Source: Malacoraja senta | Lineage: Eukaryota | Assembly (NCBI GenBank): GCA_038087875.1 | Contig: CM075993.1 | Coordinates: forward strand, 6,016,001-6,080,000 | Direction: 5' to 3' | Length of the DNA stretch: 64,000 bases | Shown: positions 9,561 through 58,624 of the stretch, piece after piece | Layout: each line of letters starts with the position of its first letter | How positions within the stretch are numbered: the first letter of the stretch is position 1 | Position numbers and translations under genes: made by a program | Notes under the pieces: model-generated | What the model was told of the DNA's origin: nothing | The model's input: only the letters and a program-made list of their open reading frames with translations | Databases searched by the model: none

Positions 9561-9589
9561 CCTCCGGCCCCGCTCCTGGTCTCCGGCCT

Positions 9590-9889
9590 CTCCCTCAGTG
9601 TCCGGCTCCGGCTCTTCTCGGTGTCCCGTCCCCCCAGCCTCGCTCTCCGGCCGCCGTTACACCAGCTGTCCCGGTGTCTCTCCGGCCGCCGATACTAAGT
9701 ATTCGGCCCCACTCTCAGTGATGGTCTCTCTCTCTCTCTCTCTCCAGCCGCCGTTACTCAGTGTCCGGTCTCTCTCTCTCTCACTGTCGGGCCCGCTCTC
9801 AGTGTCCGCTCTCTGCGGCCGCCGTTAATCCGTGTCTACACTCTCTCTCTCTCTCTGTCCGGTCTCTCCGGCCGCCGTTACTCAGTGTC

Positions 9890-9925
<36 letters not shown>

Positions 9926-10220
9926 CCGGCCGCCGTTACTCAGTGTCCAGTCTCTCTCTGTGTCCGGCCGCCGTTACTCAGTGTCCAGTCTCTCTCTGTG
10001 TCCGGCCGCCGTTACTCAGTGTCCAGTCTCTCTCTGTGTCCGGCCGCCGTTACTCAGTGTCCGGTCTCTCTCAGTGTCCGGTCTCTCTCTCTCTCTCTCT
10101 CTCTCACTGTCGGGCCCGCTCTCAGTGTCCGCTCTCTCCGGCCGCCGTTAATCCGTGTCTACACTCTCTCTCTCTCTCTCTCTCTCTGTCCGGTCTCTCC
10201 GGCCGCCGTTACTCAGTGTC

Positions 10221-10264
<44 letters not shown>

Positions 10265-10350
10265 CCGGCCGCCGTTACTCAGTGTCCAGTCTCTCTCAGT
10301 GTCCGGTCTGTCCGGCCGCCGTTACTCAGTGTCCGGTCTGTCCGGCCGTC
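9590..10350. repeat. GC-rich compound minisatellite (CCGGCCGCCGTTACTCAGTGTCCAG + (CT)n) between the PRC1 promoter and ATG
   Basis: About 12 units directly visible, separated by variable CT tracts. Confidence 0.95.
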
Positions 10351-10974: not shown

Positions 10975-11076
10975 TTTGGAACTCAAAGTGCCCATTTGCA
11001 AAATGCAATGGCAGATTATTAATGGCAAATAATAATCTGCCATTGCATTTTGCAAATGGGCACTTTGAGTTCCAAA
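10975..11076. repeat. Perfect inverted repeat, 46-bp arms with 10-bp spacer, inside a local tandem duplication (about 10638-11190)
   Basis: 10975-11020 is the exact reverse complement of 11031-11076. Confidence 0.93.
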
Positions 11077-14000
11077 GTTTCCACCCTTTAGTCAGAGGGT
11101 GGTGAATCTGTGGAATTCTTTACCACGGAAGGCTGTGGAGGCCAAGTCAGTGGATATATTTACGGCAGAGATAGATAGATTCTTGTTTAGTACGGGTGTC
11201 AGAGGTTATGGGGAGAAGGCAGGAGAATGGGGTTAGCCATGATTGAAAGGCAGAATAAACTTGATGGGCCGAATGGCCTAATTCCGACCCTATCACTTGT
11301 GATCTTATGAAATAATTTAAAAAACAACCATTTCTTATTTTGAAGAAGAAATTGAGCTGTGATTTTTTTTTTAATGCAGATGCTAGAAATCTAACATAAA
11401 AACAAAACATACCACTTGCTCTTCCACAGGTGGGACCTGGTTTGCTGAGTATATCCATTATTTTCTATTATTATTTTACATTTAAACAGTTTTGTGTTCT
11501 GTTTTCACACTGCTGAGAACAAGGCAAGGATTGTGGACGGACAGGTCACTGTCTGTGCATAGCTCCTCCTAGAAATCCAAACAAGGAAACCAGTTTAACT
11601 AGAGGTAGAGACACTTAAAGAAAAGTTACTGCTTTGGACTGAACTTTACCCTGTCCTCCAGCAATAAAATTATAAATCAATCTGTAATGTTTACAGCCAA
11701 ATATTAAAATCGCTTTTTTTAAGAAACAAAGTATAAAATAAAAGAGGAAACCTGAAATAAAACAAGAAATAATCAGTAAAAGGCAGCAGGCCTTTTTTTT
11801 TGTGTTTGTTTTTTGACTCTCAATGTAAAGCGACTTTGAGTCCTTGAAAAGCGCTATATAAATAAAATGTATTATTATTATTATAGATTCTGCAGATAAT
11901 GGAAAAGATCAAATTAAACATAAATGGTAGTTGATACCTTCAACATACAGAAGATTCTGTCGAGTATTCTGAAACTGAGAGAGAATTAGGGGAGCACTGA
12001 TTACTGTGGATGAACTAGAGATAATTATTACAGAGAAGTGAATAGAACAGGTTTGGAGGGATATGGATCAAATGTGGGGAAATGGGACTTGCATCTAGGG
12101 CAACATTTCCATGGTGGGCCGAAAAGCCTGCTTCCGATCCGTATGATTACTTGAAGTAAAAACAATATATGTCGAGGATATCATTTGTATTTGTGCCAAA
12201 TTAATATTGCATTCATATTTCCTTCCAACATGGAAAGTTTTTCAGTCCATCGAGTCTAAAGCTAATTCTCAATGCTATTAGTTTGCCGTCCCTGTACTTA
12301 TTTTCCTCTAAGCTATTCTCTCACATGCCTGTTAACACCCTATTGATTCTCCCACCTGCCACCTACACACTTGATGTAATGCACAGCACCCATTTAACTA
12401 CAAAAGTTTTAAAGAGATTTGCGGGACAGAGGTTTTTTTAATGATGATCGTGGCATTTCTAATTCTTTTAGATAAGCAGATTCATATGCAGCGAAGGAAG
12501 ACACAAAAAGCTGGAGTAATTCAGTGGGACAGGCAGCATCTCTGGAGAGAAGGAATGGGTAACATTTCAGGTCGAGACCCGACTTCAGACTGAGAGTCAG
12601 GGGAGAGGGAAACTAGAGATATGGAAGGGTACAAAGAGCAGCGAATTGAGGGTTGCAGGCAGAGGAGAGTAGTTTATCTTGGCAAGGTGTCCAGTACACA
12701 TGTGGGGCGATGGGCCTGTTCCTGTGCTGTGCTGTTCTATATTCTACCAACAAGCACCTCTTTACAATATACAAGAAAACCAGAGCACCTGAGGCAATCC
12801 ACAAGGAGAACATGAAAACATCACACAGATATCACTTGAGGTTAAAATTAAACCTTGGTTGTTGCGGCTGTGAGACAGCTGAACAACTTGCAGTGCCAAC
12901 GACCTGTTATAAATACAACCGGTGATATTAATAGACAAAGGGTTGTTTCAAAATAGAGTAAGGTGAATCTGGATCAGTGGTCTGATGTTTTCGTCACAAG
13001 TCTATTAATTTAGTTCTAAATATTTCATATCAGACGCAGTCTACTTTGCACTTACTGAACTCAAGCATACACTATTTTATTTTAGGTTATAGAGATACAG
13101 CATGGAAACAGGCTCTTCGGCCCACCGTGTCCATGCCAACTACCAGTCACGCGTTCCATGTTATCCCACTTTCTCATCCACTCGGCTCAGTTTACAGAGG
13201 ACAATTAACCTACAAACCCGTATGTCTTTGTGATGGAGGGAACTGGAAAACCCGGAGGAAACTCACGCGGTCACAGGGAGAACGTGTAAACTCTGCACAG
13301 AGAGCAACCGTGGTCAGTATCAAACCCGGGTCTCTGGCATTTGAGACAGTAGCTCTACCAGCTGTGCCACTGTGCCACATTAAACTAGTTATTGACTCTC
13401 CAGAAAAATGGCTGATTTTGCCATTTTTCCTGAGGTCAGGTTTATGCCCGGGCCACATAAGTGTTCAGCTTTAAATAATTAATTTCCTGAAGAAAATGTC
13501 ACATTGTGATTCATCATTGAGTATGACAGACATTTCATTGTTGTTGATGGAAAAGCCAGGGTTGAATAGCCACCTAACAATATTGAGCTATGCAAGAATA
13601 GTGAACACTCTGGTGAGGCAGCAGAAGGCAGCCAGTGCACATAGAAACATATCGCAGCAGTATACATGGGGACTCTCTCCATCAACCAGTAGCAGGGTTA
13701 CCTTGAAGTGCCGCTCTGCTGCACCGAGGAAGTCCTGCAATGGCGAGGACGCTGCCTTTCAGACAATAAACCAAGACACCCACCGGGGAAAGGGTTTCAA
13801 TATTAAAAAAAAAACAAGGATTGTGGTTAAACCACCTTTGGACACAGTATATTGTATATATCAAACTGAATTTCAGATGTCACCCACAGTCATATACAGT
13901 ACATAAAGCATTTTTTATTTATTGTCAAACATTATTATATACATAAAAGTTTAGCTCAGTGCAAGATGGAATTTCACAGTCGCAAAGCTAGCACTCGGTA

Positions 14001-24800: not shown

Positions 24801-27800
24801 TCCCTGTCCCCTCTCTCAGTCCACCTTCTCCCATCTTTCATGTGTTCTCCCTGCCTTCTCAAATACTTTCCTCATTCTGTCCGTTCACAGCCCTCTTTCC
24901 TTCCCCCCCCCCCATCCGTTTCCTTTTCCATTGCTCTTTTCTCCTTCTCTAACCCTTTCCTCAGTTGTTCCTTTCACTTCCCTTATTCTCCTCCCCTTCT
25001 TAACCCCTTCTGCAATCTCTCTGTTCCCGCTTAGTCTCGCTCCCTGCCTACCCATCTCCACCGTTGACACTGCAAGCGGTGGAAAAGCGGCGGAAAAGAT
25101 TGTAAAATCACAGAGAAAAGGCAAGCAGCGTGGCCGCAGATTCTTAATGCTGCCGCGTTCATGCTCCACACTTAATCTACATCGCCAAAGCAGGTACATT
25201 GGCGAGCAATCCTATCTCTTGAGTCAGAGAGTTGCAGGTTCAAGTCCCACTCCAGAGCTGTGTGCAGGTTTTAAACGCCAGCAGAAGGATTACAACAACA
25301 AGACCCAATGCAGCCCACAGTCCCAGAACAGGACTCCCAACAGTTCTCACCCACAAATGCTCCTGTAATAGTATTGATTTATTTTGCTTACTTGCAGATA
25401 CTGTGTTTTCAACGATCGATAATCTTTGGAAATCAGACCTGAAGGGGAAATACACAAGAAGAATATTAAACTGACAATTCTGAAATGGAGATACAAGAAA
25501 CTGCAAATGCTGGAGTCTGGAGCACAAAAATAACTCAGCGGGTCAGGCGGCATCTGTAACATCAGGTAGGACCATCATCAGTCATTCCCTTCCACAGATG
25601 TTGCTCGACTCCATGAGTTCCTCCAGCACTTTCTAATGCAAACTGTGGCAAAGCTCTGAAATATTATCATTTCACTTTAAAGAAAAAGTCATTCCTGAGA
25701 AGATCCAACTATGTAACAGCAGATAATTTAAAATCTGAAGAAGGGTTTCGGCCTGAAACGTTGCCTATCTCCTTCGCTCCATAGATGCTGCTGCACCCGC
25801 TGAGTTTCTCCAGCATTTTTGTGTAACCTCAGATAATTTAAAAGATGTGCCTAGAATTCTCCCAGTGAATAGGGAGAAACTATTTCCAGTAATTGTACAA
25901 GTATGTGTACCACTTCACACAAATGAAGGATAAGTTGTGAAAAAATCAAGGGGGGGGGGGAAAGATTTTTTTCAAGAATATTGCAAGTTATTATAAAAAG
26001 ATGCAAACTTTATTGTTCCATGTGTCTGCACTATATGATCGCTATGCATCACTTTTCTGCTCAAGATTCAGATTAGTTTGCTGTCATATTCACCGACAAG
26101 GAAATTCCTAGTTCGCATGAAGCTCAGACCACAGAGTGTACTTGGTAATAATAGATACAATAAATGCAAAACAGTAGAATGGTGCAGAGATTGTCGTGCA
26201 ATCTGAAGCAGTGCAGCAAAAACTAAAGTACAATAACAGAATAGTTTTAGTGAGAGTATGTGGCAGCAGCTTTGGGAAGGACGTGGGAAATAGGTGATTG
26301 ATTTCGGAGTATAATAGCGGTGGGGAAGAAGCGGTTCTTAAGACCGGACTATCAAGTCTGTATTTTCTCCCAGAGGTAAAGAGAGAAAAGGGAATGGTCA
26401 GGGTGGCTGGCATCCTTGACAATGCTTCCAGCCTTACTGATGCATGGCCAAGTAAATGGAATGGATAGAAGGAAGTGATGAGCCTGCGATGGACTGGGCA
26501 GGTTCAGGTGGTCAAGGGTGGAGCAGTTGCCAGGAAATGAGTGAAGGGGCCAAGGAGTTGAAGGGAGGGAAAAATTGGCCATAGGAACTGAAGCAGGGAG
26601 GAGATCGGGATCAGGTGACTGAGGGAGAGGGTGTGGGCAAGTGGTTGTGCCTGTTTAGTTCATTAATTTAGAAATACAGTGCGGAAACAACCCTTCGGCC
26701 CACCGGGCCCACACCGACTGGCGGTCCCCACACATTAACACTATCCTACACACACCACAGACAATTCACCTATAAACCTGTACACCTTTGGAGTGTGGGA
26801 GGAAACCGGAGGTCTCGGGGCAAACCCACACGGTCACTGAGAGATCGTACAAACTCCGCACAGAGTTGGGGTCTCTGGCGCTGTAAGGCAGCAACTTTAC
26901 CGCTGCGCCACCATGCCGCCATGTGTTTGTGAGTGTGAACATTTGCAGGGATCGTGTCTCACAGTATCCCCACTCATGTAATGACTTGGTGTTTGAAGGT
27001 TTCAAACTCACCATTTTCTGTCAGCGAAAGTAGACACATCAGCCGGAGACTCTCAAAGGGAGAAATCTGAAAAACCAAGTCAGCAGAGGGTAAAAACAAA
27101 CCAGTCGAGTGTGGAGAATGTTAGCAGTTTACAATGCCACAGAGCTTTTCTTTTGCTTGACCTTTGATGCAGGAAACTTGTTCCCGATGTTGGGGAAGTC
27201 CAGAACCAGGGGCCAAAGTTTAAGAATAAGGGGTCGGCCATTTAGATGAGGAAAAGCTTTTTCACGCAGAGAGTTGTGAATTTGTGGAATTCTCTGCCTC
27301 AGAAGGCAGTGGAGGCCGATTCACTGGATGCATTCAAAAGAGAGTTTGATAGAGCTCTTAGGGCTAGCGGAATCAAGGGGATATGGGGAGAAGGCAGGAA
27401 CGGGGTACTGATTGGGGATGATCCGCCATGATCACATTGAATGGCGGTGCTGGCTCGAAGGGCTGAATGGCCTACTCCTGCACCTATTGTCTATATATCT
27501 ATGTACCTTCAACCATACTTGAGAAAGTGGCAACATTCGCGTGAGATGTTTTCAATGACTATGTATAAGAAATATTTAGATAGACACTTGAATAAGAAAT
27601 GCATCAAAGGATCAAATCTAATACAAGAAAATGGTATTAGTGTAGATGGCACAAAGGTCAGTATGGACGTTTAGTTTAGTTTAGAGATACAGCATGGAAA
27701 CGGGCCCTTTGTCCCATCATGTCTGCTCCGACCAACGATCAACCTTACATTAGTTCGATGCTATCCCAGTTTTGCACCCTACACACGAGGAGCAATTTAC

Positions 27801-30800
27801 AGAAGCCAATTAACCTACAAACATCTTTGGAGACCTGGGAGGAAACCGGAGCTGGACAAAACCCACAGTCGCAGAAAGAATGTACAAACTCCGTACAGAC
27901 AGCAGCTTTAGTCAAGAACAAACCCGGGGCTCTGGCGGTGAAAGGCAGCAACACTACTGCTGCGCCGTTTTGCTAAAGGATTTCTGTGCTGTACAACTCT
28001 ATGCCTCTATTGAACTGTGGATCTGGTGCATGGGATGAAGGAAAATCACAGCCTGACTCTGGTCTCTGCTGATGAGCAAAAGGACACTTACAGCCGGGGA
28101 CTGCCAGTTTACCAGCAGGAGTGGGAACGCACTCTTATTTTCCTCACCATCGTAAGCCAGTTAAAGTAAAAGTAAATTTCACATATTCATTAAACGTGTT
28201 ATAAAGATTATTTCCTATTGCCCAAGCATAATTCCTGATCTGTTTTATGAGGGTAATTAAATCCAGCATTCCCTCTGCCCTTCCAAGTGATTGTGACACA
28301 GAACACCTCCTTAGCCAAACGTGTGACTTGCCCAACTTGAACTCAGTACATCCTGAGCTGTAAAACAGGCACAGCTCAGCAGTTTCACTTCAATTGGCCT
28401 CTACAGGATGGCCGAGTGATCTCAATACACATATAACTGGTACACATACCTGCCTGTTAATGTGCTCCTCAATACAGGTGGTGCTCTCTCTGATCTCGAA
28501 CCCTTCCAACAGTGCTGAAGAGGAGAAGTCAGTCAGTGAGCGGAACACAGACAGAACGCATACTGAAGAACTACAATAATTTGATAACAAAACTGAAATT
28601 CGTCTTAGGAACGTGCGATTCAAGAATAATCCCCAGGAGACAACACGTGACTGAAGGCTCTTGCAGCCACCTCTTTAACTTCCAAACATTTTTCTGTAAT
28701 CATTTGTGGGAACTGGGTGTTTCTGGCGAGGCCACCATTTCCTGCCCATCCTTTTGAAACGAGACACTCCTGGCATTGAAAGTTGGCTCGCTAGGGGAAA
28801 AAATATTCATCATCGTCAATGGAATTTTACAGAGAAGAAATTCTTCCAGATTCATTCCAAATCCCATTTGCATTAAGGCTATCATTAAGTGCATCAATAG
28901 AATAAGTTCCCGTTTTGGAATTTGTGCAGATCTTACACCAGGGAGCTGAATGCCGAGTACTAACTCCACTTCCAGTCTTGTTTAGCAGACTTTGTGGGCT
29001 GAAGGGCCTGTTCCTGTGGTTCAATGGCACTTTATAGCCACATGTGCCTTGGGACTCTGATATTCCTTCTTTTCATACAATTCAGTATAAAATCTTACTA
29101 TACGTAAGCACAATCATACTAAGTGTGTACGTAGGTACACTCTTGTATCAGACAATAGTGTAAGGATAGTAGATTATACTGTGGCAGTACACAAGAGTCG
29201 AGGCTCTACTGTTCTATGTTTAATACGTGTAGACGCCAAGGTTTTTCAAATCTCAGCTTGGGGTCAGGTAATCACTGCTTCTTCGCTCACCCAGCCTCCC
29301 TCCTGCCTTGTGTCACCCCGCTGGCCTCGAGACTTTCCCCACATCCCTTCATGCACAATGAAAAGACTACCTGCAATGAACAAAGACCATCTGCTTGGCC
29401 TCTCACTGAATCATACCATGCTCAGATTTCAGCAGCTCCTGAAAGTCCTGCTTTGTTTTCTTCTTCATAATTGACTCGCAAGCTCCAATATCTATGAAGA
29501 AGGGGGATGAAGTGTAGGTCAGTAATTCAGGGGTGGTAGAGTAAACGGCGGTAGAGTTGCTGTATCTCGAAAGTCTAAAGGATCCAAGTCTAAACTGTAA
29601 AGTCTGAGACCGGGCGTGGACGGTTTGGGCAGATCACCTGCATTCTGTCTACAACAGCCATCTTGAGCTCCTGGGTTGATATCATTACAACTCTCTTTCT
29701 CTATCCCCACACACCGATCTGTCTGTCTTCCGCTGCCACAGTGAGGTCAAACACAAAGCATAGACTCAAAGCATAGCACCACAGATTCTGTCTGGGTAGC
29801 TTTCAGTCCAATGCTATGAACCTCCGATTTACCGTTTACAGTAGATAACCCACCTCGCCTGTGGTCCTCTCTCTCTCCTACCAGTCCACCAGGGTCTTCT
29901 GCAGTTGTACAGGGCCCTAGTGAGACCACACCTGGAGTATTGTGTGCAGTTTTGGTCCCCTAAATTGAGGAAGGCCATTCTTGCTATTGACGGAGTGCAG
30001 CGTAGGTTTACAAGGTTAATTCCCGGGATGGCGGGACTGTCATATGCTGAGAGAATGGAGCGGCTGGGCTTGTACACTCTGGAGTTTAGAAGGATGAGAG
30101 GGAATCTTATTGAAACATATAAGATTGTTAAGGGTTTGGACACGCTAGAGGCAGGAAACATGTTCCCGATGTTGGGGGAGTCCAGAACCAGGGGCCACAG
30201 TTTAAGAATAAGGGGTAAGCCATTTGGAACGGAGACGAGGAAACACTTTTTCTCACAGAGTGTTGTGAGTCTGTGGAATTCTCTGCCTCAGAGGACGGTG
30301 GAGGCTGGTTCTCTGGATACTTTCAAGAGAGAGCTAGATAGGGCTCTTAAAGATAGCGGAGTCAGAGGATATGGGGAGAAGGCAGGAACGGGGTACTGAT
30401 TGGGGATGATCAGCCATGATCACATTGAATGGCGGTGCTGGCTCGAAGGGCCGAATGGCCTACTCCTGCACCTATTGTCTATTGTCTCTCTCCCTTTGTT
30501 TAACTTTTCCATTACTGCTCCCCTCATCCCCTCAACGCATCAGCCTTCCCCTCCTGATTAATTCTGCCCATTACTCACATACCCATCCAGCTAGGTTTGT
30601 TTACGCTTGGTTCGCTTTCCTATACCCTCCCCCTTCTGATTCCATCTGTCCATCATCCTCCCCTTATCTGGGTCCACCTATGACTTACTGGCCTCTCTCT
30701 CTCTCATTTCCATACACTGGCGACTGGCTACCTTCCATCTACACTCTGTCCTGAAACATCGACCATCCCTCCACAGATACTGCTTGACCAGCTGAGGTCT

Positions 30801-39325: not shown

Positions 39326-41401
39326 CTGTCAATGAATCTGGAGATGTGTGTTTTCACAATTCTGTACCTTTTGCCTGTTGGGAGGGGAGAAGAGGGAGTG
39401 GCCATATAAGAAGGATATGAACATCAGCAGACAATTGGTTCAGACAGACCCCTCAACAGCTGTTGCCTGGACCTGTGAATGGCATTTTGGCCAGGCCCAG
39501 AAGACTGAGGAGATGGACACATGATTGATTCACCCTCATCCACACCAGGTGCCCAAAGGCAAGGAGAGGCTGAACTGCAAGCACTAGCTGAAAGTCCCCC
39601 TTCAAACATCCAAGGGCTGCAACCCCGCATACAAATAAACATCGTTCAGCATCTCCCCCAGGCCACGGAAATGGTCTGAAGGTCTTGACCCAAAACGTCA
39701 TCTATTCATGTTCTCCAAAGATGCTGCCTGACCTGCTGAGTTACTCCAGCACTTTGTGTCTTATTGTGCATCTGCGGTTCTTCATTTCTATCAGAAATAG
39801 CAGCTGGCCTGCAGAGTCCAAGCCAGTTGATTTGAGAGTGTGTGAAGAGATGGTGCATACAAACGTTTTAACTTAATACTGAAAGAACCACGCCACACCA
39901 TAGAAGGATGGTCAGAATTGGTTTTAATTTCAGTTTATTACGTCCACCCTGAGAACATTCGCAGAAGCATTTCAAAAGCTTTGACCGTAGGCAATCTTGT
40001 TTAACACAAAGTGTTCTCTGAGGCAGGAACTCCCAATGGCTTCAGCACTCAATATCATCCACCCAAGATTTCCACAGCTCATACCCAACGTGTCTGTCGC
40101 TTTACTCCCTCCACATCAGACTCCCACTATCTCAATCAGTGCACGCACTTCCCAGAATAAGGCTGACCCCTTAGTTCAGTCACAGACGTACCACCATGCC
40201 AACCGAGTCCTGTTCCCACCCGTTATCTGTGTCCGGATGTCCATCCACCCAGGTGCAAGTCGTCCTCCATCATGGAGATAGAGATACAGCGCAGAAACAG
40301 CCCTTCAGCCCACAGAGTCCGCACCGACCAGCGATCACCCCGTACACTAGCATTATCCTACGCACTAGGGACAATTTACAACCAAAGCCAATTAAACTAC
40401 AAACCTGTTTAACAAGGAACTGCAGATGCTGGAAAATCGAAGGTAGACAAAAACGCTGGAGAAACTCAGCGGGTGCAGCAGCATCTATGAAGCGAAGGAA
40501 ATAGGCAACGTTTCGGCCTGAAACGTTGCCTATTTCCTTTGCTCCATTGATGCTGCTGTTTCCTCTAGGTGCTCTGGTTTCCTCCCCACATCCCAGCAAC
40601 ATGAGGGTGTACAGGTTAATTGAACCTCTCTGTAAATTGCCCCTAGTGTGTCGGGAGTGGATGAAAGAGTGGGACTTTTTTGAGCATTTTTGTCTAAACT
40701 ACAAACCTGTACGTCTTTGGAATGTGGGAGGAAACCGGAGCACCCGGGGAAAACCCACGCAGTCACGGGGAGAACGTACAAACTCGGTACAGACGGCACC
40801 CGTGGTCAGGATCAAACCCGGGTCTCTGCCGCGTGTAAGGCAGCAACTCTACCGCTGCGCCACCGTGCGGAGTTTCACACAATTCAGAGACTGGCCCGCT
40901 CGGGCGAGGGATCAGAAGCAACCGACAGTCACACGGTGTGGTCTAGTGCTGTGTGATGCCGAGAGGCAGCGCTGCGGTTGTGTATGGCCGTGACTCCATG
41001 GGCAGAGCTACCATCAGATGGTCGTGGGTCCAAGCCTCGCCGTCAGAGGTGAAGCACCTCAGATAAGACAGTAAACAAAGATCTTATAGCCCTTGGCTAG
41101 CACTTGGCTAGATTCTTGAGTAGTACAGGTGTCAGAGGTTATAGGGGAAAAGCAGGAGAACGCGGTTGGGAGGGAGATAGATCAGCCACGATTGAATGGC
41201 AGAGTAGACTTGATGGGCTGAATGGCCTAATTCTACTCCTATTCATTATGACCTTATGACTTTTCAAATGTACAGAAGTTCTCAGTGGCGCTCTGATGAG
41301 ATTTTACCCCCAAAATGTGACCAAAAAAAAGATCACCTCATTACCACACTGGTGCCGTGGGAGCTTGCAGTGTGTAGATTGATGGCTTTTCTCGCTACAG
41401 A

Positions 41402-41739: not shown

Positions 41740-42373
41740 TCAGGCTTCCTGTTTGGGATTATTTAAGTGTTTATTAATCCTATAAAGGAAATTGCCATCC
41801 TGGTCATAAAACTCATGGTCTTTCTGGACAACGACAATGTGATTTTCCTGCCCTCTGCCAGCGAGTTCCTCCAATTCCTGGTCCATTTTTCCAGCAGTCG
41901 CAAGCTGCTCATCGCTGGAGGTGTCACAGAGTTCCCTGCCTTTTCCCCTCTCTTTGCCAGTAGCTTCCTTCCTGCTGGTGTTGGCCTTCACAACCCCACC
42001 CTGGTCAGCGAGCTCGATACTGGTTCTCTGCTGGATTGGCTTGGATCTTCCCACCTTCTTCTCCCCGGCTCTGCTCTGAGGGAGAACGGGAAGAGCGTCT
42101 GGCCCCTGAGATAGTCTGGCCAGAGGTGCCTTATCCGCGACCAGTTTGGAGTCGGCCGGGACTGAGTTGTGCGGTAAACCGATGGTCGGTTGTTTCCTTC
42201 GGGGAGAGGGAGTTGGGTTCAGTGCTGCAACCGTCGCATCCTGTTTCATCCTCCTCTCCGGCGAAGGGACAAACCTACTCCGCAGAACTCTCCGGATGAC
42301 GTCCTCGCTCACCGAAAACCCCTCGGCCAGCTGTGACACGCTCCACTCCTCCGGAAACTGTGCCTTCAAAAAC
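41740..42373 (-). CDS. NGRN: NGRN exon 3
   Basis: cag|(R)FLKAQFPEEWSVSQLAEGFSVSEDVIRRVL...GNFLYRINKHLNNPKQEA*. Confidence 0.95.
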
Positions 42374-45300
42374 CTGCAACACACCAAGCAAGCAATAACA
42401 TCAGCTCAAATCCAGCACCAAACACTGGGAGAGAGATTACACCGGCACTTGTTATTTGGTAGGAAGGAAAGTAGCAGGTCTGCCTGAACCTACCTGATCT
42501 CCGAGTTGCTAAACAATTTAATTCTCCTTCCCATTCCCACACTGACCTATCTGTCCTTGGTCGCCTCCATTGTTAGAGTGAGGCTAAACACAAATTGGAG
42601 GAACAGCATCTCATATTTTGCTTGGGCAACTTACAGTCCAGTGGTATGAATTTTGATTTCTCTAACTTCGTAACCCAGGCATTCCCTCTCTCTCTATCCC
42701 CCCCCCCCTCCACACACACAAGTCGCACCAGCTTCTTATTCTCACCCAACAATGGCCTGTTTCCCTTATCATCGTTACTTTTTTGCATATCTTTCATTCA
42801 TTGTTCTTTATCTCTCTACATCATCTTCTATATCTCTCGTTTCCCTTTCCCGTGACTTTCAGTCTAAAGTGGGTCTCGACCCGAAACGTCACCCATTCCT
42901 ACTATCCAGAGATGCTGCCTGTCCCACCGAGTTACTGCAGCATTTTGTGTCTATCTTCGGTCCAAACACCCGTAATCGACCCTGACTCAGGCACTGTCTG
43001 TGTGGAGTCTGCACGTTCGTCCTGTGACCACATGGGTCTCCCCGAGTGCTCTGGTTACCTGCACCTTCTTCCTTCCCCACCCCACCCCACTGACTCCATT
43101 TACATGTTCAAGAAGGAATTGCAGATGCTGGAGAATCGAATGTAAACAAAATTGCTGGAGAAACTCAGCGGGTGCGGCAGCATCTATGGAGCGAAGGAAA
43201 TAGGCAACGTTTCGGGCAGAAACCCTTCTCCAGACTGATGGACTCCATTTACATTTCACGCATGATATGATGCATCCCGAGAGGACCCGAATCCCAATCA
43301 GATGCATTCTGTGTAACGGTTACCTGATTTGCTGCAGGGCCTCTGTAGTTAGAGTTCTCGTAGGAGCTCCGCCACTCTCAAACTCCGCCTGAATTTGCCG
43401 GTATTTTATGGCTTTCCACTTTCTCTTCTCAGCCCTGCAGGTTGAGGGGAGATGCTTAGCATGATCCTTCCAAAAATCCACTTGTCAAAAAACATCTTTT
43501 ACAAATGGTACAAACTAACCATGTGTCATTGCAAACATTGTTTAAACTTTGTTTTTCGTCTGAGTGACGCTTCAGACCAGGCTATTTGGTTTGGTTCATA
43601 GAGTCATAGAGGGATACAGCGTGGAAACAGGCCCTTCGGCCCAACATGTCCCAGCTGCACTAGTCCCACCTACCCGCGTTAGGTCCATATCTCTCCAAAC
43701 CTATGCTATCCGTGTACCGTGTCTAACAGTTTCTTAAATCTTGGGATAGTCCCTGCCGCAACTACCTCCTCTGGCAGCTCATTCCATACACGCACCACCC
43801 TTTGTGTGAGAAAGTTACTCCTCAGATTCCTACTAAATCTTTTCCCCTTCACCTTAAACCTATGTCCTCTCGTCCTCGATTCCCCTACTCTGGGCAAGAG
43901 ACTCTGTGCATCTACCCGATCTATTCCTCTCATGATTTTATACACCTCTATAAGATCACCCCTCATCCTCCTGTGCTCCAAGAAATAGAGTCCCAGCCTA
44001 TTCAACCTCTCCCTATAGCTCACACCCTAAAGTCCTGGCAACATCCTCGTAAATCTTCTCTGTACCTATGTCTGAAGGTTCTTGACCTGAAACGTAACCC
44101 ATTCCTTCTCTCCAGAGATGCTGCCTGACCCGCAGAGTTACTCTGGCTTTTTGTGTCATTAAATATCTGGTTCACTCTTGTCCTGAAAGGTTGGGGGTGG
44201 ATACACAAAAAATGCTGGAGAAACTCAGCGGGCACAGCAGCATCTATGGAGCAAAGGAAATAAGCAACGTTTCGGGCCGAAACCCTTCTTCAGACCCGAA
44301 ACGTTGCCTATTTCCTTCGCTCCATAGATGCTGCTGCACCCGCTGAGTTTCTCCAGCATTTTTGAGTACCTTCGATTTTCCAGCATCTGCAGTTCCTTCT
44401 TTAACACAAGGTTGGGGGGTGGGTGTGTCCCCCAGCTACTCTTCAGAAAACTCTTAATCAATCTGTCCCCATCTGACTCCAGAAGGACACAAAGTGCTGG
44501 AGAAACTCAGCTGGTCAGGCAGCATCTCTGAAGAACACGGGTCAGTGACATTTCAAGAACCCTTCTTCAGACTGAGTTTAGAGGGGAGAGGGTAAGACAG
44601 CTGGAAGAAAGGAGAGGCAGGACAAAGCGTGGCAAGTAATTATTTCTTCAGTTCAGGGACATTTAAGGAAAGCCAATAAATGCGAACAACATCCACATGG
44701 ATTTTTTTTTAAAGCCCCAGATCCCAACAAACTAGAACAGAGAACATTAAATAATTAAACTTATAGCTAGTTTCCTGCAGCATTGACATCAAAACATAAC
44801 TGGAAGCATTTCCCTGTAAGCAAGTGTTGGGAGTTTCAACAGCATCAAAACATTCGGACCAGGCTTAGTTGGTCATCTGGGTCAGCATGGAGGAGACGGG
44901 CCGAAGGGCCTGTTTCAGATCTGTTGGGCACTGAAACATTAGGATTAATAACTTGCCATGGTTTTGGTTAATTACACTGGTTAGTTAGTTGATGCACAAT
45001 TAGTTAGTTACTAAGTGTGGGGGCTGTAGATGCTGGTTTACACCAAAGATCTATAATCTTTGGTTTACCCCAAAGAGGAGCTCCTCTAGTATCATTGCTT
45101 TACACCGCAGAGTAGATAGAAAAAGCTGGAATAGCTCAGCGGGGACAGGCAGCATCTCTGGAGAGAAGGAGTGGGTGAGAAGGAGGAGATGCTGCCTGTC
45201 CCCGCTGAGTAATACTCCGGCATTTTGTGTCTATGGTCGGTTTAAACCAGCATCTGCGGTTCTTTCCTGCACTACACACCTGATTAACTCCTCCAGTTGC

Positions 45301-45595
45301 TGCTGCTCGTCGGGCTCGGCCGCTTTTTCCCCGTCGTTGAACGCCCTGCTCGGCGGGAGCCCCACCGGCCGGGGCCGGGGTCGGGGATGCATTGGGCCTG
45401 GGCCTGGGCCCACAGGCCTCGCCGCGCCGCAGCCCGCAGCCACATCACTGCCGCGGCTCCAGCTCCAGCTCCGGCCTGGGCCTGGGCCTGGGCCTGGGCC
45501 TGGGCCTGGGCCTGGGCCTGGGCCTGGGCCTGGGCCTGGGCCTGGGTCTGGGCCTGGGCCCACAGGCCTCGCCGCGCCACAGCCCGCACCCACAT
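41740..45595 (-). CDS. NGRN: Neugrin (mitochondrial 16S rRNA pseudouridylation module component), 3 coding exons; start codon and exon-1 frame uncertain
   Basis: Exon 1 ends at 45280 (...AEPDEQQQLEELI+AG|gtgtgt); exon 2 is 43324-43434; exon 3 is 41740-42373. Neugrin core GAPTRTLTTEALQQIRFLKAQFPEEWSVSQLAEGFSVSEDVIRRVLRSRFVP and C-terminal EFYDQDGNFLYRI are present. Confidence 0.92.
42500..42960 (+). mobile_element. Penelope-like retroelement 3' fragment (GIY-YIG C-terminal remnant and pseudo-LTR)
   Basis: KLEEQHLIFCLGNLQSSGMNFDFSNF resembles the PLE endonuclease C-terminal E..I..L...P.G.N motif and runs into the abundant GGGTCTCGACCCGAAACGTCACCCATTCC repeat. Sister copies at about 46933-47335(+) and 49960-50340(-). 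Confidence 0.8.
43324..43434 (-). CDS. NGRN: NGRN exon 2
   Basis: cag|(R)AEKRKWKAIKYRQIQAEFESGGAPTRTLTTEALQQI+AG|gtaacc. Confidence 0.94.
43600..44062 (-). mobile_element. CR1 LINE 3' fragment (second subfamily)
   Basis: SYRERLNRLGLYFLEHRRMRGDLIEVYKIMRGIDRVD...RTRGHRFKVKG; plus-strand sister copies at about 61158-61517 and 23598-23905. Confidence 0.9.
45280..45595 (-). CDS. NGRN: NGRN exon 1 (candidate ATGs at 45595 and 45445 with a frameshift, or 45392 in frame)
   Basis: GC-rich exon with donor AG|gtgtgt at 45280. The acidic EPDEQQQLEE segment resembles the neugrin region just before the core. Confidence 0.7.
45475..45558. repeat. (CCTGGG/GGCCTG)14 hexanucleotide array
   Basis: Fourteen units directly visible, one of them a TCTGGG variant. 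Confidence 0.97.
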
Positions 45596-46072
45596 CACTG
45601 CTCCAGCTCCATCTCCATCTCCAGCTCCATCTCCGGCCCCACTGGAGGGAAGCTCAGCACAACAGTCCCCGCCTCTTGCTGCCTGCCTGAGCTTTGTTCA
45701 TGTGCAGGAAGGGAACTGCAGACGCTGCTTTACACCGAAGATAGACACAAAATGCCGGAGTGACTCAGCGGGACAGGCGGCATCAGTTGTTTAAGAAGGA
45801 ACTGCAGATGCTGGAAAACCGAAGGTAGACAAAAATGCTGGAGAAACTCAGCGGGTGAGGCAGCATCTATGGGGCGAAGGAAATAGGCAGCATCAGTATC
45901 TTTGGGCAGCATCAGCATCTCTGGAGAGAAGGAATGGGTGACGTTTCGGGTCGAGACCCTTCTTCAGATCAACGATACTAGACAAGGCTCCTCTAGTATC
46001 TTTGCTTCAGATTAGTCAAATGCAAAGATTATATAATCTTTGGTCAGATGAAAGGAAACGAGAGATCTAGAC

Positions 46073-46542
46073 CAAGTGCCACCAACCTGGGGTAAATTTA
46101 CCCTCAGGGGGGTAAATTTCACCTACCCAGGGGTAAATTTGTTGATTCTGGATTTATACTTTATTTTTTTTCCTCATTGACTGGCTGTGTTTGGTTCTGG
46201 CTTACCGATATCTGTCCATCATTAGTTGTTCATAAATAAGTGAAATAGTGTAGCGCCGCCTGCTAGCGCACGCAGATATCGAACCCGGCGTTCGGAAGCC
46301 GCGGTCTCGTGACTCGGGAGGGGCTGTTGTTTTCGCGCGTTTTTTCCCTTGCGCGCGTTAGTTCAGCGCTGACCACCGATGTGGCCAGACGTGTCTGTTA
46401 AACCTGTATGCTGCAACTTGAACGTCCGAATAAAGTATTGTTGAAAACTCCAGGAGTCGTTTATCAGACCACTAAAATAGCATTGTTATGTGCTATTAAA
46501 GTTGCCAGGGGTAAACGGGACGAAAAAGGTTGGGAACCCCTG
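46073..46542. mobile_element. hAT (Charlie-like) non-autonomous DNA transposon
   Basis: 8-bp TSD ATCTAGAC at 46065-46072 and 46543-46550; imperfect TIRs (CAAGTGCCACCAACC / GGTTGGGAACCCCTG). Confidence 0.82.
46249..46476 (+). mobile_element. Solo LTR (Gypsy-like)
   Basis: Termini TGTAGCG...CCACTAAA (near TGTAG..CTACA), 4-bp TSD ATAG, AATAAA near the 3' end, CpG-rich. Confidence 0.7.
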
Positions 46543-49500
46543 ATCTAGACGGTGATGTAGAGATCATTCTTTGTTCTTTATCTCTCTACATCATCATCTA
46601 TATCTCTTGTTTCCCTTTCCCCTAACTAGTCTGAAGAAGGGTCTCGACCAGAAACATCACCCATTCCTTCTCTCCAGAGATGCTGCCTGTCCTGCTGAGT
46701 TACTCCAGCTTTTTGTGCCTAACTTGAGCTTGATCATTGCTGGCTCCTTTATCCCGTCTGGGCTATGACCTCCATCTTTCCATGGTCATCGGTGCCAGCT
46801 CTGATGTGTTCTGTACCTATTCATACCTCAAGTTTCTCTATCTCCCTGACTCTCAGCCTGAAGAAGGGTCTCAGCCCAAAACATCACCTATCCACGTCTC
46901 CTATTCCTTTTCTCCAGAGATGGTGTCTTTTTTCACTTGGGCAGCTTACAACCCAGTGGTATGAATATTGATTTCTCTAACTTCAAGTAACCCTTGCAAC
47001 CTCTCTCCATCCTCTCCCCCATTCGTTGTTGTACAAGCTTCAAAGTTGTCTTGTTGAGTCTCATTGTCTGTAACTCATTCTCACCTAGCACACAATGGTC
47101 CGTCTCTTTTATCATCCTCACTTTTCTTGCACATCTTTGATTCATTTGTTCTATATCTCTCTGTATCGCCATCTATATCTCTTGTTTCCCTTTCCTCTGA
47201 CTCTCAGACTGAAGAAGGGTCTCAACCCAAAACGTCACCCATTCCTTTTCTCCAGAGATGCTGTCTGACCTGCAGTTACTCTAGCTTTTTGTCTTGTCTT
47301 CGGTTTAACCCAACATCTGCAGTTCATGCCTACACATCGCCTATCCATGTTCCGAAGGGATGCTGCCTGACCCGCTGAGTTCTTCCAGCACTTTGTGTTT
47401 TTAGTACTTTCTTGTACCTTCAGATCAGTTCATTATCATATACATCAGGGTGCAACAAAATTCCTTGTTCACATGAAGCTCGTAAAGTAAATATATAATG
47501 CATGTAGTATTGATTCATACCATGACAAGTGCAAAACTGAATGCTGTAAGGCAGTGGCGCAGCGGTAGAGCTGCTGCCTCACAGCGCCAGAGACCCAAGT
47601 TCGATTCTGACTACGGGTGCTGTCCGTACAGTTTGTACGTTCTCCCTGTGACTGCCTGGGTTTCCTCCCACATTCAATAGACAATAGACAATAGGTGCAG
47701 GAGTAGGCCATTCAGCCCTTCGAGCCAGCACCGCCATTCAATGTGATCATGGCTGATCATCCCCAATCAGTACCCCGTTCCTGCCTTCTCCCCATATCCC
47801 CTGACTCCGGTATTTTTATGAGCCCTATCTAGCTCTCTCTTGAAAGCATCCATAGACGTGCAGTGGTTAATTTGGCTCTGTAAATTGCCCCTTGTGTGTA
47901 GGATGTGAATGCGTGGATAACATGGAACTAGTATGAATAGGTGATCAATGGTCAGCTTAGACTTTAAGTGGGCCGAAGGGCCTTTTTCGCCGCTGTATCT
48001 TTATACTATGGTGCAATCTGGGAAATAAATGCAATAATGAAATAATTGAATGTCGATTAAAAGTATTTGCCATCTTGTCCAGGAAGCAGGTGTTCAGGAG
48101 GTGATTAGTTCAGGGATCTGTTAGCCATGGGCAGGCTTTTTCTGTGACGGTACATGCCAGTACTGGCACCTCCGGAAAGTTAAACATCATTATTTCGTTT
48201 TTTTGCAATGTGACACATGTGTTCATTAATCATGCATTCGGGCACCAGCGGTGGAGGCCTTCAACAATATCGCCTGGCCAGGCCAACCCCAGGACAACAG
48301 GCCTTTATGGCCAAAATAAAACTCTAACATTTGAACAATTCTGAACTCGAGGGGTACAAGATGGTGCCAGGAACATGGCAACTCTTGTGTACTACCTCAA
48401 TGTAATCTACTATCCTTACACTTTTGCTCTTAAGTACGAATGTGCCTACGTATTGCAAGATTTTTACTGAACTGTATGCAAAAAAGAAAAAACCCAATGG
48501 TACCTGTGACAATAAAGTACCATTGAAAACTGGCCATTGGAGTCGAGTGAATCACTTGAGGAATAAAGGAGGAGTGTAGGAATACATTTATGAGAGAAAT
48601 CAGAAGATCAAAAAGGGGACGAGGGATAGCTCTGTCAAGGAAGATAAAGAAAAACCCAAAGAGTAGCCACAAATATATTCAGGTCAAAAGACTAAATAGG
48701 GTGAGAATAAGGCCCCTTGAGGCTCAATGAGATCACCAATGCGTGCAGCAGCCACAGAACATGGGAAAGCTGTTAAAGGAATATTTCTCATCTGTATTTA
48801 TGGTGGAGAAAGACATTGATGCTAAGGAACCCGGACAGGTTAACACTGTGGAAGAGAGTTCACAACCCAGAAGAGGAGGTACTGAAGGTCTTAAAGGTGG
48901 TAATTGACCAATAAGTAGATAACTAAATCAGGGTACATAAGCCTGATGAAGGGTCTCGACCCGAAACGTCACCCATTCCTTCTCTCCAGAGATGCTGCCT
49001 GACCCGCTGAGTTATTGAAGCTTTTTGTGTCTACAAATAATCAAATGGCAAATGGTAAATAAGCCATTTAGAACTGAGACGAGGAAACACTTTTTCTCAC
49101 AGTGGTGAGTCAGTGGAATTCTCTGCCTCAGAGAGCGGTGGAGGCAGGTTCTCTGGATGCTTTCAAGAGAGAGCTAGATAGGGCTCTTAAAAATAGCGGA
49201 GTCCGGGGATATGGGGAGAAGGCAGGAACGGGGTACTGATTGGGGATGATCAGCCATGATCACATTGAATGGCTCGACGGGCCAAATGGCCTACTCCTGC
49301 ACCTAGTGTCTATTGTAATCCAGAATAAATATATCCAGAGCAGTCCTGACTACCTTTGATCGGACTTTACTGGCTTTACCTGGCACTAAATGTTATTCCT
49401 TTATCATGTATCTGTGACACTGCGAATGGCTCGATTGTAATCATGTATTATCTTTCCGCTGGCTGGTCACGCAACAAAAGGTTTTCGCTCTACCTCAGTG

Positions 49501-58479: not shown

Positions 58480-58624
58480 CAGTGGCGGACTGGGTCTAAA
58501 AATATTGGTTGCCAGGAGACAAATGGGGCCCACTTCATCAGGGGCCCGCTTGAAATAGGGGGCCCACTTCATCAGGGGCCCACTTGCCATCGGCAAAGCT
58601 GATACCCTGGCCAGTCCGCCACTA
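58480..58624. mobile_element. hAT MITE, 145 bp
   Basis: TIRs CAGTGGCGGACTGG / CCAGTCCGCCACTA; 8-bp TSD CTAGTATG; internal GGGGCCCACTT repeats. Confidence 0.88.

What the first reader, a model, noticed from the sequence alone, without database searches (positions are those of the whole stretch)
45036..46050. Four 19-35 bp palindromic micro-insertions, each with an 8-bp TSD, around NGRN exon 1
Seen: GTTTACAC-[CAAAGATCTATAATCTTTG, 45044-45062]-GTTTACCC-[CAAAGAGGAGCTCCTCTAGTATCATTG, 45071-45097]-CTTTACAC; CTTCAGAT-[CAACGATACTAGACAAGGCTCCTCTAGTATCTTTG, 45970-46004]-CTTCAGAT; and GTCAAATG-[perfect 20-bp palindrome CAAAGATTATATAATCTTTG, 46023-46042]-GTCAGATG. All start CAA(A/C)GA and end ATC(T/A)TTG, and they interrupt otherwise recognisable Penelope repeats. 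Known: 8-bp TSDs with CA..TG ends are hAT hallmarks, but hAT MITEs are normally much longer. Inference: a family of TIR-only micro-transposons (or collapsed elements) that inserts repeatedly at the same site and near an open promoter. I saw none elsewhere in the window.
Basis: partly seen in the sequence, partly recalled or inferred. Interest (0 to 1): 0.75.

Follow-up and report, generated by a model that had tools for sequence, protein, structure and literature searches.

The report
Transposon exit scars at skate promoter
The tiny inserts around the start of this skate gene are real, and they are most likely scars left when a cut-and-paste jumping gene, probably a relative of the fruit-fly P element, jumped out again and the cell joined the two leftover tips, rather than miniature jumping genes in their own right.

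Summary
All four inserts are at the stated coordinates between 8-bp duplications (8/8, 7/8, 7/8, 6/8); 10 of 10 and 7 of 7 aligned in-window copies of the host repeat lack them. I found a probable fifth (11 bp, 45894) and a 19-bp relative without a duplication (25410). Five of the six read directly as a left tip joined to a right tip of one terminus family, at most 17 nt per side: 17+1+17 for the 35-mer, 1-2-nt microhomology joints for the short ones. The 27-mer needs an added 7-nt loss. This is the build of Drosophila P-element donor-site scars (17-nt staggered cut, end joining), not of hAT footprints. An 8-bp site hit twice and clustering within 600 bp of the NGRN start also fit P behaviour. 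Relatives' contigs match the right tip far more often than the centre. No parent element or transposase was recovered, so P membership and the excision step are inferred. Verdict: real, probably a known kind of scar, seen in natural vertebrate DNA.

The parts
45036..45043 (.). 8-bp target, copy 1 of 3 (site A; paralogs carry one GTTTAAAC-like 8-mer here)
45044..45062 (.). E1, 19 bp: 6-7 nt left tip + 12-13 nt right tip, 1-nt overlap; its right arm defines the beta tip variant
45063..45070 (.). 8-bp target, copy 2 of 3, flanked by TTG and CAA from the tips
45071..45097 (.). E2, 27 bp: full 17-nt right tip joined at GGAG|CTCC to a left tip that lacks 7 nt between two AGA words (inferred loss)
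   Evidence: the loss is my reading by eye, the ungapped fit gives 7+3+17 with 2 mismatches
45098..45105 (.). 8-bp target, copy 3 of 3
45280..45445 (-). NGRN exon 1 coding part from the conserved ATG (45445) to the splice donor; a duplicated start lies at 45595
   Evidence: tblastn of P0001-P0003; ORFs; donor
45886..45912 (.). Probable fifth scar E3: 11 bp (45894-45904; 1-2 nt left tip + 9-10 nt right tip) between perfect 8-bp repeats; a 19-bp tandem duplication with two changes is an alternative
45962..46012 (.). E4, 35 bp (45970-46004) = 17 + 1 + 17, three mismatches between the arms, between perfect 8-bp repeats (45962-45969, 46005-46012)
46015..46050 (.). E5, 20-bp perfect palindrome (46023-46042): two 11-nt beta tips overlapping by TA, between 7/8 repeats
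25410..25428 (.). E6, 19-bp relative of E1 (17/19) with no flanking duplication, 20 kb away
   Evidence: 0.0007 such matches expected
41743..42375 (-). NGRN last coding exon (identifies gene and lineage)

Best explanation
The inserts are likely excision scars of a P-element-type cut-and-paste transposon family: each consists of the two outer tips of one terminus family, at most about 17 bases per side, lying between two copies of an 8-base target. Inferred steps: (1) an element with CAAAGA...TCTTTG ends inserted near the NGRN start in the germline and duplicated 8 bp. (2) Its transposase later cut one strand at the element edge and the other about 17 nt inside, leaving a 17-nt single-stranded tip on each flank. 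(3) End joining fused the tips, either nearly intact (35-mer, 17+1+17; 27-mer, intact joint with a 7-nt loss) or trimmed to 1-2-nt microhomologies (20-, 19-, 11-mers). (4) The tips left beside each target copy restored a good target, so site A was hit a second time in the same register. The scars are predicted to be inert.
For: Shown: inserts and duplications are real and absent from paralogs. The two tip variants agree at 11 of 13 positions in register, and E1, E3, E4, E5 and E6 fit left prefix + right prefix with 0, 0, 3, 0 and 2 mismatches and at most 1 filler base (both tip references were drawn from E1 and E4, so those two fits are partly circular). E4 is exactly 17+1+17, and E2 independently keeps the same right tip up to the joint. 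6 of 6 inserts are <=35 bp. Literature: P transposase cuts 17 bp inside the inverted repeat, makes 8-bp duplications and favours promoters (PMC7776569, passages). Repaired P donor sites are target + <=17 nt + microhomology or filler + <=17 nt + target (PMC2895639 Tables 1-3, passages). P tips restore the target and favour re-insertion (PMC2577343 section 12); here 7 of 8 target half-sites have T at the position matching the tip's TTG (p about 0.005 after a rough correction, small and post hoc). In four runs of related organisms, summed contig depth at 45993 (right tip) is 2024/921/229/496, against 382/90/28/40 at the centre (45983) and 34/32/7/15 in the bin beyond. Contigs crossing the centre show 1-3-nt gaps at 45982-45986 and 45993, as expected for longer elements or variable joints. 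Clustering: 3-4 sites in 1 kb of 64 kb, p 7e-4 to 2e-5, 299-597 bp upstream and about 180-240 bp into intron 1.
Against: No full-length parent and no transposase were seen: no THAP or P domain in the 150 longest of 218 ORFs >=75 aa, and no genome is held. The 17-nt limit rests on two inserts. E2 needs an extra deletion, and its right arm and E4's agree for 18 nt, so the cut could be at 18. E6 lacks a duplication, and E3 could be a tandem duplication. Zebrafish THAP9 excision gave larger flanking deletions in cell assays, and a 17-nt cut is not reported for it in the section read (PMC10983969 section 6). The other recognisable promoter in the window (about 10.3-10.6 kb, likely PRC1) has no such scar. 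Summed depth is not a copy number, and the orthologous site was not shown to be covered.
Confidence: 0.72

Rival explanations
1. Collapsed MITEs: long elements lost their interior in place, by interrupted gap repair or hairpin-driven deletion, without a deep staggered cut. The parent could be hAT or P.
For: Gives tips between intact duplications and variable joints. A true hAT-type MITE sits next door in the same host-repeat copy (46073-46542), so hAT activity is local. Most matches in relatives cover only the right tip.
Against: Deletion end points should scatter over tens to hundreds of bases, yet 6 of 6 inserts are <=35 bp and none keeps more than 17-18 nt per side. No intermediate-length element with these tips and an 8-bp repeat (<=1 mismatch) was found up to 3 kb.
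Confidence: 0.15
2. Mobile TIR-only micro-transposons: 19-35-bp units that a transposase moves as they are.
For: Each has ends and an 8-bp repeat. E1 and E6 share one 19-bp build 20 kb apart. Several contigs of relatives cross the 35-mer's centre.
Against: The five TSD-flanked inserts have five different centres. P transposase needs internal binding sites beyond the inverted repeats (PMC7776569, passages and section 9), for which there is no room. Recurrent microhomology joints explain shared builds. That 20 bp is too short to pair both ends in one complex is my inference.
Confidence: 0.07
3. Repair or replication by-products with no transposon: template switching or polymerase-theta insertions that make short palindromes and duplicate a few flanking bases.
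For: E3 lies in a period-19 tandem array; short palindromes arise in end joining.
Against: The same tips occur in four unrelated flanks, are not copied from those flanks, and always carry an 8-bp repeat; the tip sequence is matched by many contigs in relatives.
Confidence: 0.06

Closest known systems
Drosophila melanogaster P-element donor-site junctions after excision (P{wa} assay, PMC2895639 Tables 1-3, passages read; mechanism PMC7776569, passages and section 9)
   Same: 8-bp target kept on both sides; up to 17 nt of each tip retained; joints by 1-3-nt microhomology, blunt join or short filler; promoter-proximal, re-used target.
   Different: Different tip sequence; natural, apparently fixed scars in a cartilaginous fish rather than laboratory events in flies; parent and enzyme not seen.
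Zebrafish Pdre elements / THAP9 (PMC10983969, passages and section 6)
   Same: Vertebrate P-like elements with CA..TG ends and 8-bp duplications.
   Different: 13-bp inverted repeats of unrelated sequence; reported excision products in cells were larger deletions, not tip-to-tip scars.
P-MITEs of Anopheles gambiae (PMC1562414) and BuT5 of Drosophila (PMC3698922), passages read
   Same: Non-autonomous P relatives with 8-bp (BuT5: 8-9-bp) duplications; the likely kind of parent.
   Different: Hundreds of bases to about 1 kb or more, and they keep subterminal sequence; the inserts here do not.
hAT (Ac/Ds) elements and their footprints (PMC5873905, passages read)
   Different: Ac/Ds footprints are small deletions and palindromes made from flanking bases through a hairpin; element tips are not what is left.

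Membership tests
P-type excision footprint | Both copies of an 8-bp target duplication retained | tested here: met
   5 of 6 inserts (6/8 to 8/8); E6 has none
P-type excision footprint | Insert made only of the two element tips, <=17 nt each, with microhomology, blunt or filler joint | tested here: met
   5 of 6 fit directly and E2 with one 7-nt loss; tip references came from the inserts themselves
P-type excision footprint | A full-length element with the same termini exists, or existed at the site | tested here: inconclusive
   None in the window; right-tip excess in relatives' contigs is only suggestive; no hits in metagenome contigs
P superfamily | THAP + RNase-H transposase encoded between these termini | not testable with these tools
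   No genome held; no such domain in 150 of 218 window ORFs scanned
P superfamily | 17-nt staggered donor cleavage | tested here: inconclusive
   E4 = 17+1+17 and E2's right tip fit; 18 nt not excluded; chemistry not testable here
P superfamily | CA...TG termini | tested here: met
   not diagnostic, shared by many families (PMC2577343 section 12)
P superfamily | Palindromic target motif wider than the duplication, restored by the tips | tested here: inconclusive
   7 of 8 half-sites with central T; site A is GTTTAAAC-like in paralogs and was hit twice; four sites only
P superfamily | Preference for promoters | tested here: inconclusive
   All 5 TSD-flanked inserts lie within 600 bp of the NGRN ATG at 45445; none at the one other recognisable promoter
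hAT | 8-bp target duplication | tested here: met
hAT | Excision footprint built from flanking bases (hairpin P-nucleotides) | tested here: not met
   Inserts share tips across unrelated flanks and do not mirror the flanks (PMC5873905)
Mobile MITE | Many near-identical copies of uniform length with subterminal sequence | tested here: not met
   Lengths 11, 19, 19, 20, 27, 35 with different centres and no subterminal sequence; genome-wide counts unavailable

The most novel reading that the evidence does not exclude
The 19-35-bp units are themselves moved by a skate transposase: transposons reduced to two tips, far smaller than the MITEs in the papers read, that home to open promoters and rebuild their own landing site so that they stack.
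Probability: 0.07. Interest if true: 0.85.

Novelty: new member of a known kind. Interest (0 to 1): 0.45.

Why it matters
In the papers read, the 17-nt staggered cut is documented for the Drosophila P transposase only. If these are its scars, a P-type family was mobile in the germline of a cartilaginous fish and used the same unusual chemistry. Because such scars keep both tips and both target copies, they can be counted genome-wide. That would give the cut depth, the target motif and the end-joining spectrum of a vertebrate germline, and, if the promoter bias holds, a fossil map of germline-open promoters. It could also point to a vertebrate-adapted P transposase. Nine literature searches listed no paper on such scars or on P elements in skates, judged from titles and abstract starts. 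The library lacks most subscription journals, and Repbase/Dfam were not available.

Tried and rejected
No whole genome is held, so the genome-wide test could not be run. The look-up of sequencing runs listed 24 runs, none holding half of the words (best 0.37), so no run of this individual was available. Laying 4 of the 24 runs was swamped by the host repeat (about 200,000-250,000 contigs laid per run); no piece spanned the stretch, the exon bins 45620-45670 had zero depth, and the loose ends shown were all host-repeat ends. So neither the orthologous state nor the parent's interior was obtained. Exact-pattern scans found nothing: a 19-nt junction motif in metagenome contigs and a 24-nt host-repeat motif in viral and metagenome contigs; these collections appear to hold no skate DNA, so this is uninformative. 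Earlier-findings look-ups by sequence, relatives and parent-type words were empty. A search for published terminal consensus codes returned only unrelated papers. PMC2775673 passages added nothing. Considered and set aside: 41076-41095 (left tip matches 9 nt, 15/20 to E5 by eye, no duplication) as too weak; the CpG-rich block at 33.3-34.2 kb as a promoter (it reads as a repeat); a generic scan for other short TIR-plus-duplication inserts gave only scattered, chance-like hits outside the cluster (no shuffle control).

Full report
Observation. All four inserts are present as described: 45044-45062 (E1, 19 bp), 45071-45097 (E2, 27 bp), 45970-46004 (E4, 35 bp) and 46023-46042 (E5, 20 bp), with 8-bp flanking repeats matching 7/8, 6/8, 8/8 and 7/8. 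Tip pairs alone are not in excess over 100 block-wise dinucleotide shuffles (25 against mean 14.4, max 29). Tip pairs with an 8-bp repeat are (5 against 0.11, max 2; the five include the composite E1+E2 span, and the motif was chosen from the inserts). They are true insertions: 10 of 10 aligned in-window copies of the host repeat lack E1/E2 and carry at most one GTTTAAAC-like 8-mer where the window has three, and 7 of 7 lack E4/E5. Two more family members exist: E3 (45894-45904, 11 bp, perfect 8-bp repeat, though a 19-bp tandem duplication with two changes is possible) and E6 (25410-25428, 17/19 to E1, 0.0007 expected by chance, no repeat).

Context. The gene is NGRN (Pfam Neugrin). The best named relatives are Rhinoraja longicauda (79%), Pristis (71%) and other rays, so the window is from a skate or close relative. 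The conserved ATG is at 45445 on the minus strand, a duplicated start lies at 45595, and the exon 1 donor is at 45280. E1/E2 lie about 180-240 bp into intron 1; E3-E5 lie 299-597 bp upstream of the starts. The chance of 3-4 independent sites within 1 kb of 64 kb is 7e-4 to 2e-5. The one other recognisable promoter (about 10.3-10.6 kb, upstream of PRC1-like exons) has none.

Anatomy. Read inward from each end, the arms fall into two variants that agree at 11 of 13 positions in register. E4 is 17 nt of left tip, one base, and 17 nt of right tip (3 mismatches between arms). E2 keeps the same right tip and meets the left one at a symmetric GGAG|CTCC joint, with 7 nt missing from the left tip between two AGA words (my reading; the ungapped fit is 7+3+17 with 2 mismatches). 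E5 is two 11-nt tips overlapping by TA. E1 and E6 are 6-7 nt plus 12-13 nt with a 1-nt overlap. E3 is 1-2 nt plus 9-10 nt. The tip references were taken from E4 and E1, so those fits are partly circular; E2, E3, E5 and E6 are not. No insert exceeds 35 bp (6 of 6), and no longer element with these tips and an 8-bp repeat (<=1 mismatch) was found up to 3 kb.

Mechanism. P transposase cuts one strand at the element edge and the other 17 bp inside the inverted repeat, duplicates 8 bp, favours promoters, and leaves a break repaired by homologous recombination or end joining (PMC7776569, passages; section 9). Sequenced donor sites are target + up to 17 nt + microhomology, blunt join or filler + up to 17 nt + target (PMC2895639, passages with Tables 1-3), which is the build found here. 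P tips restore the wider target motif and favour re-insertion at an occupied site (PMC2577343, passages and section 12). That would explain three target copies and two scars at site A, and 7 of 8 half-sites here have the matching central T (four sites, post hoc). Ac/Ds-type hAT footprints are instead made of flanking bases (PMC5873905, passages). Shown: inserts, duplications, shared tips, size limit, clustering. Inferred: a longer parent, its excision, the cut depth, the joining route, P membership.

Relatives. Four of the 24 runs listed were laid on 45620-46110. Summed contig depth (X24/X1/X3/X4) is 1514/688/172/377 over 45994-46010, falls to 34/32/7/15 in the next bin, and is 382/90/28/40 at the centre (45983) against 2024/921/229/496 at 45993; most single contigs listed have depths of about 5-70. 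The tool warns that this is not a copy number. It does indicate that the right tip is repeated in these organisms and usually does not continue into this left arm. Contigs crossing the centre have 1-3-nt gaps at 45982-45986 and 45993, that is slightly shorter variants. Most depth at 45977 reads C instead of A, which matches E1's left tip but may come from another repeat. The orthologous site was not shown to be covered, and the parent's interior was not obtained.

Against. No parent or transposase was found (150 of 218 ORFs >=75 aa scanned; no genome). The 17-nt limit rests on E4 and E2, whose right arms agree for 18 nt. Zebrafish THAP9 gave larger deletions in cell assays (PMC10983969, section 6 and passages; supplements not opened). 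E6 has no duplication. Promoter preference rests on one locus.

Comparison and novelty. It works like a P-element donor scar; membership of the P superfamily is untested on its key feature, the transposase. P-MITEs of Anopheles and Drosophila (PMC1562414, PMC3698922, passages) show what a parent might be. Nine searches (listings only, apart from the papers named) showed no report of such scars or of P elements in skates; Repbase and Dfam were not available. I recorded the scar reading before consulting earlier findings. Unreviewed notes from other genomes reach the same reading; they are not independent support, and they show that the class is recurrent in this scan. Verdict: real; likely excision scars (0.72); new member of a known kind; interest 0.45.

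Noticed in passing
window 46073-46542: 470-bp hAT-like non-autonomous element with imperfect terminal repeats (about 10 of 15) and a perfect 8-bp TA-centred duplication (46065-46072, 46543-46550), inserted in the same host-repeat copy as E4 and E5: three DNA-transposon hits in one repeat copy upstream of NGRN. The Charlie/Buster-type reading is recalled.
   Followed up: partly
window 45393-45625: NGRN exon 1 start is duplicated (83-nt direct repeat, 150 apart) around an expanded GGCCTG array of 14.7 copies; the upstream ATG at 45595 is in frame and would add about 50 residues with an Ala-Gln repeat that P0001-P0003 lack.
   Followed up: partly
window 10976-11078: Near-perfect palindrome of about 100 bp inside one copy of a tandem duplication of about 240 bp, just upstream of the likely PRC1 promoter.
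   Followed up: no
window 41076-41095: 20-bp stretch starting CAAAGATCT and ending CCCTTG, downstream of the NGRN stop; resembles an asymmetric scar but has no flanking duplication.
   Followed up: partly
window 9580-10340: CpG-rich tandem array (periods 38-61) with TC tracts, directly below the likely PRC1 promoter.
   Followed up: no
window 45135-45209: Perfect 24-nt inverted repeat with a 27-nt spacer formed by head-to-head host-repeat copies in NGRN intron 1.
   Followed up: no
window 29109-29127 and 58541-58565: Single short inserts with inverted ends and 8- or 9-bp flanking repeats but unrelated tips; may be chance.
   Followed up: no
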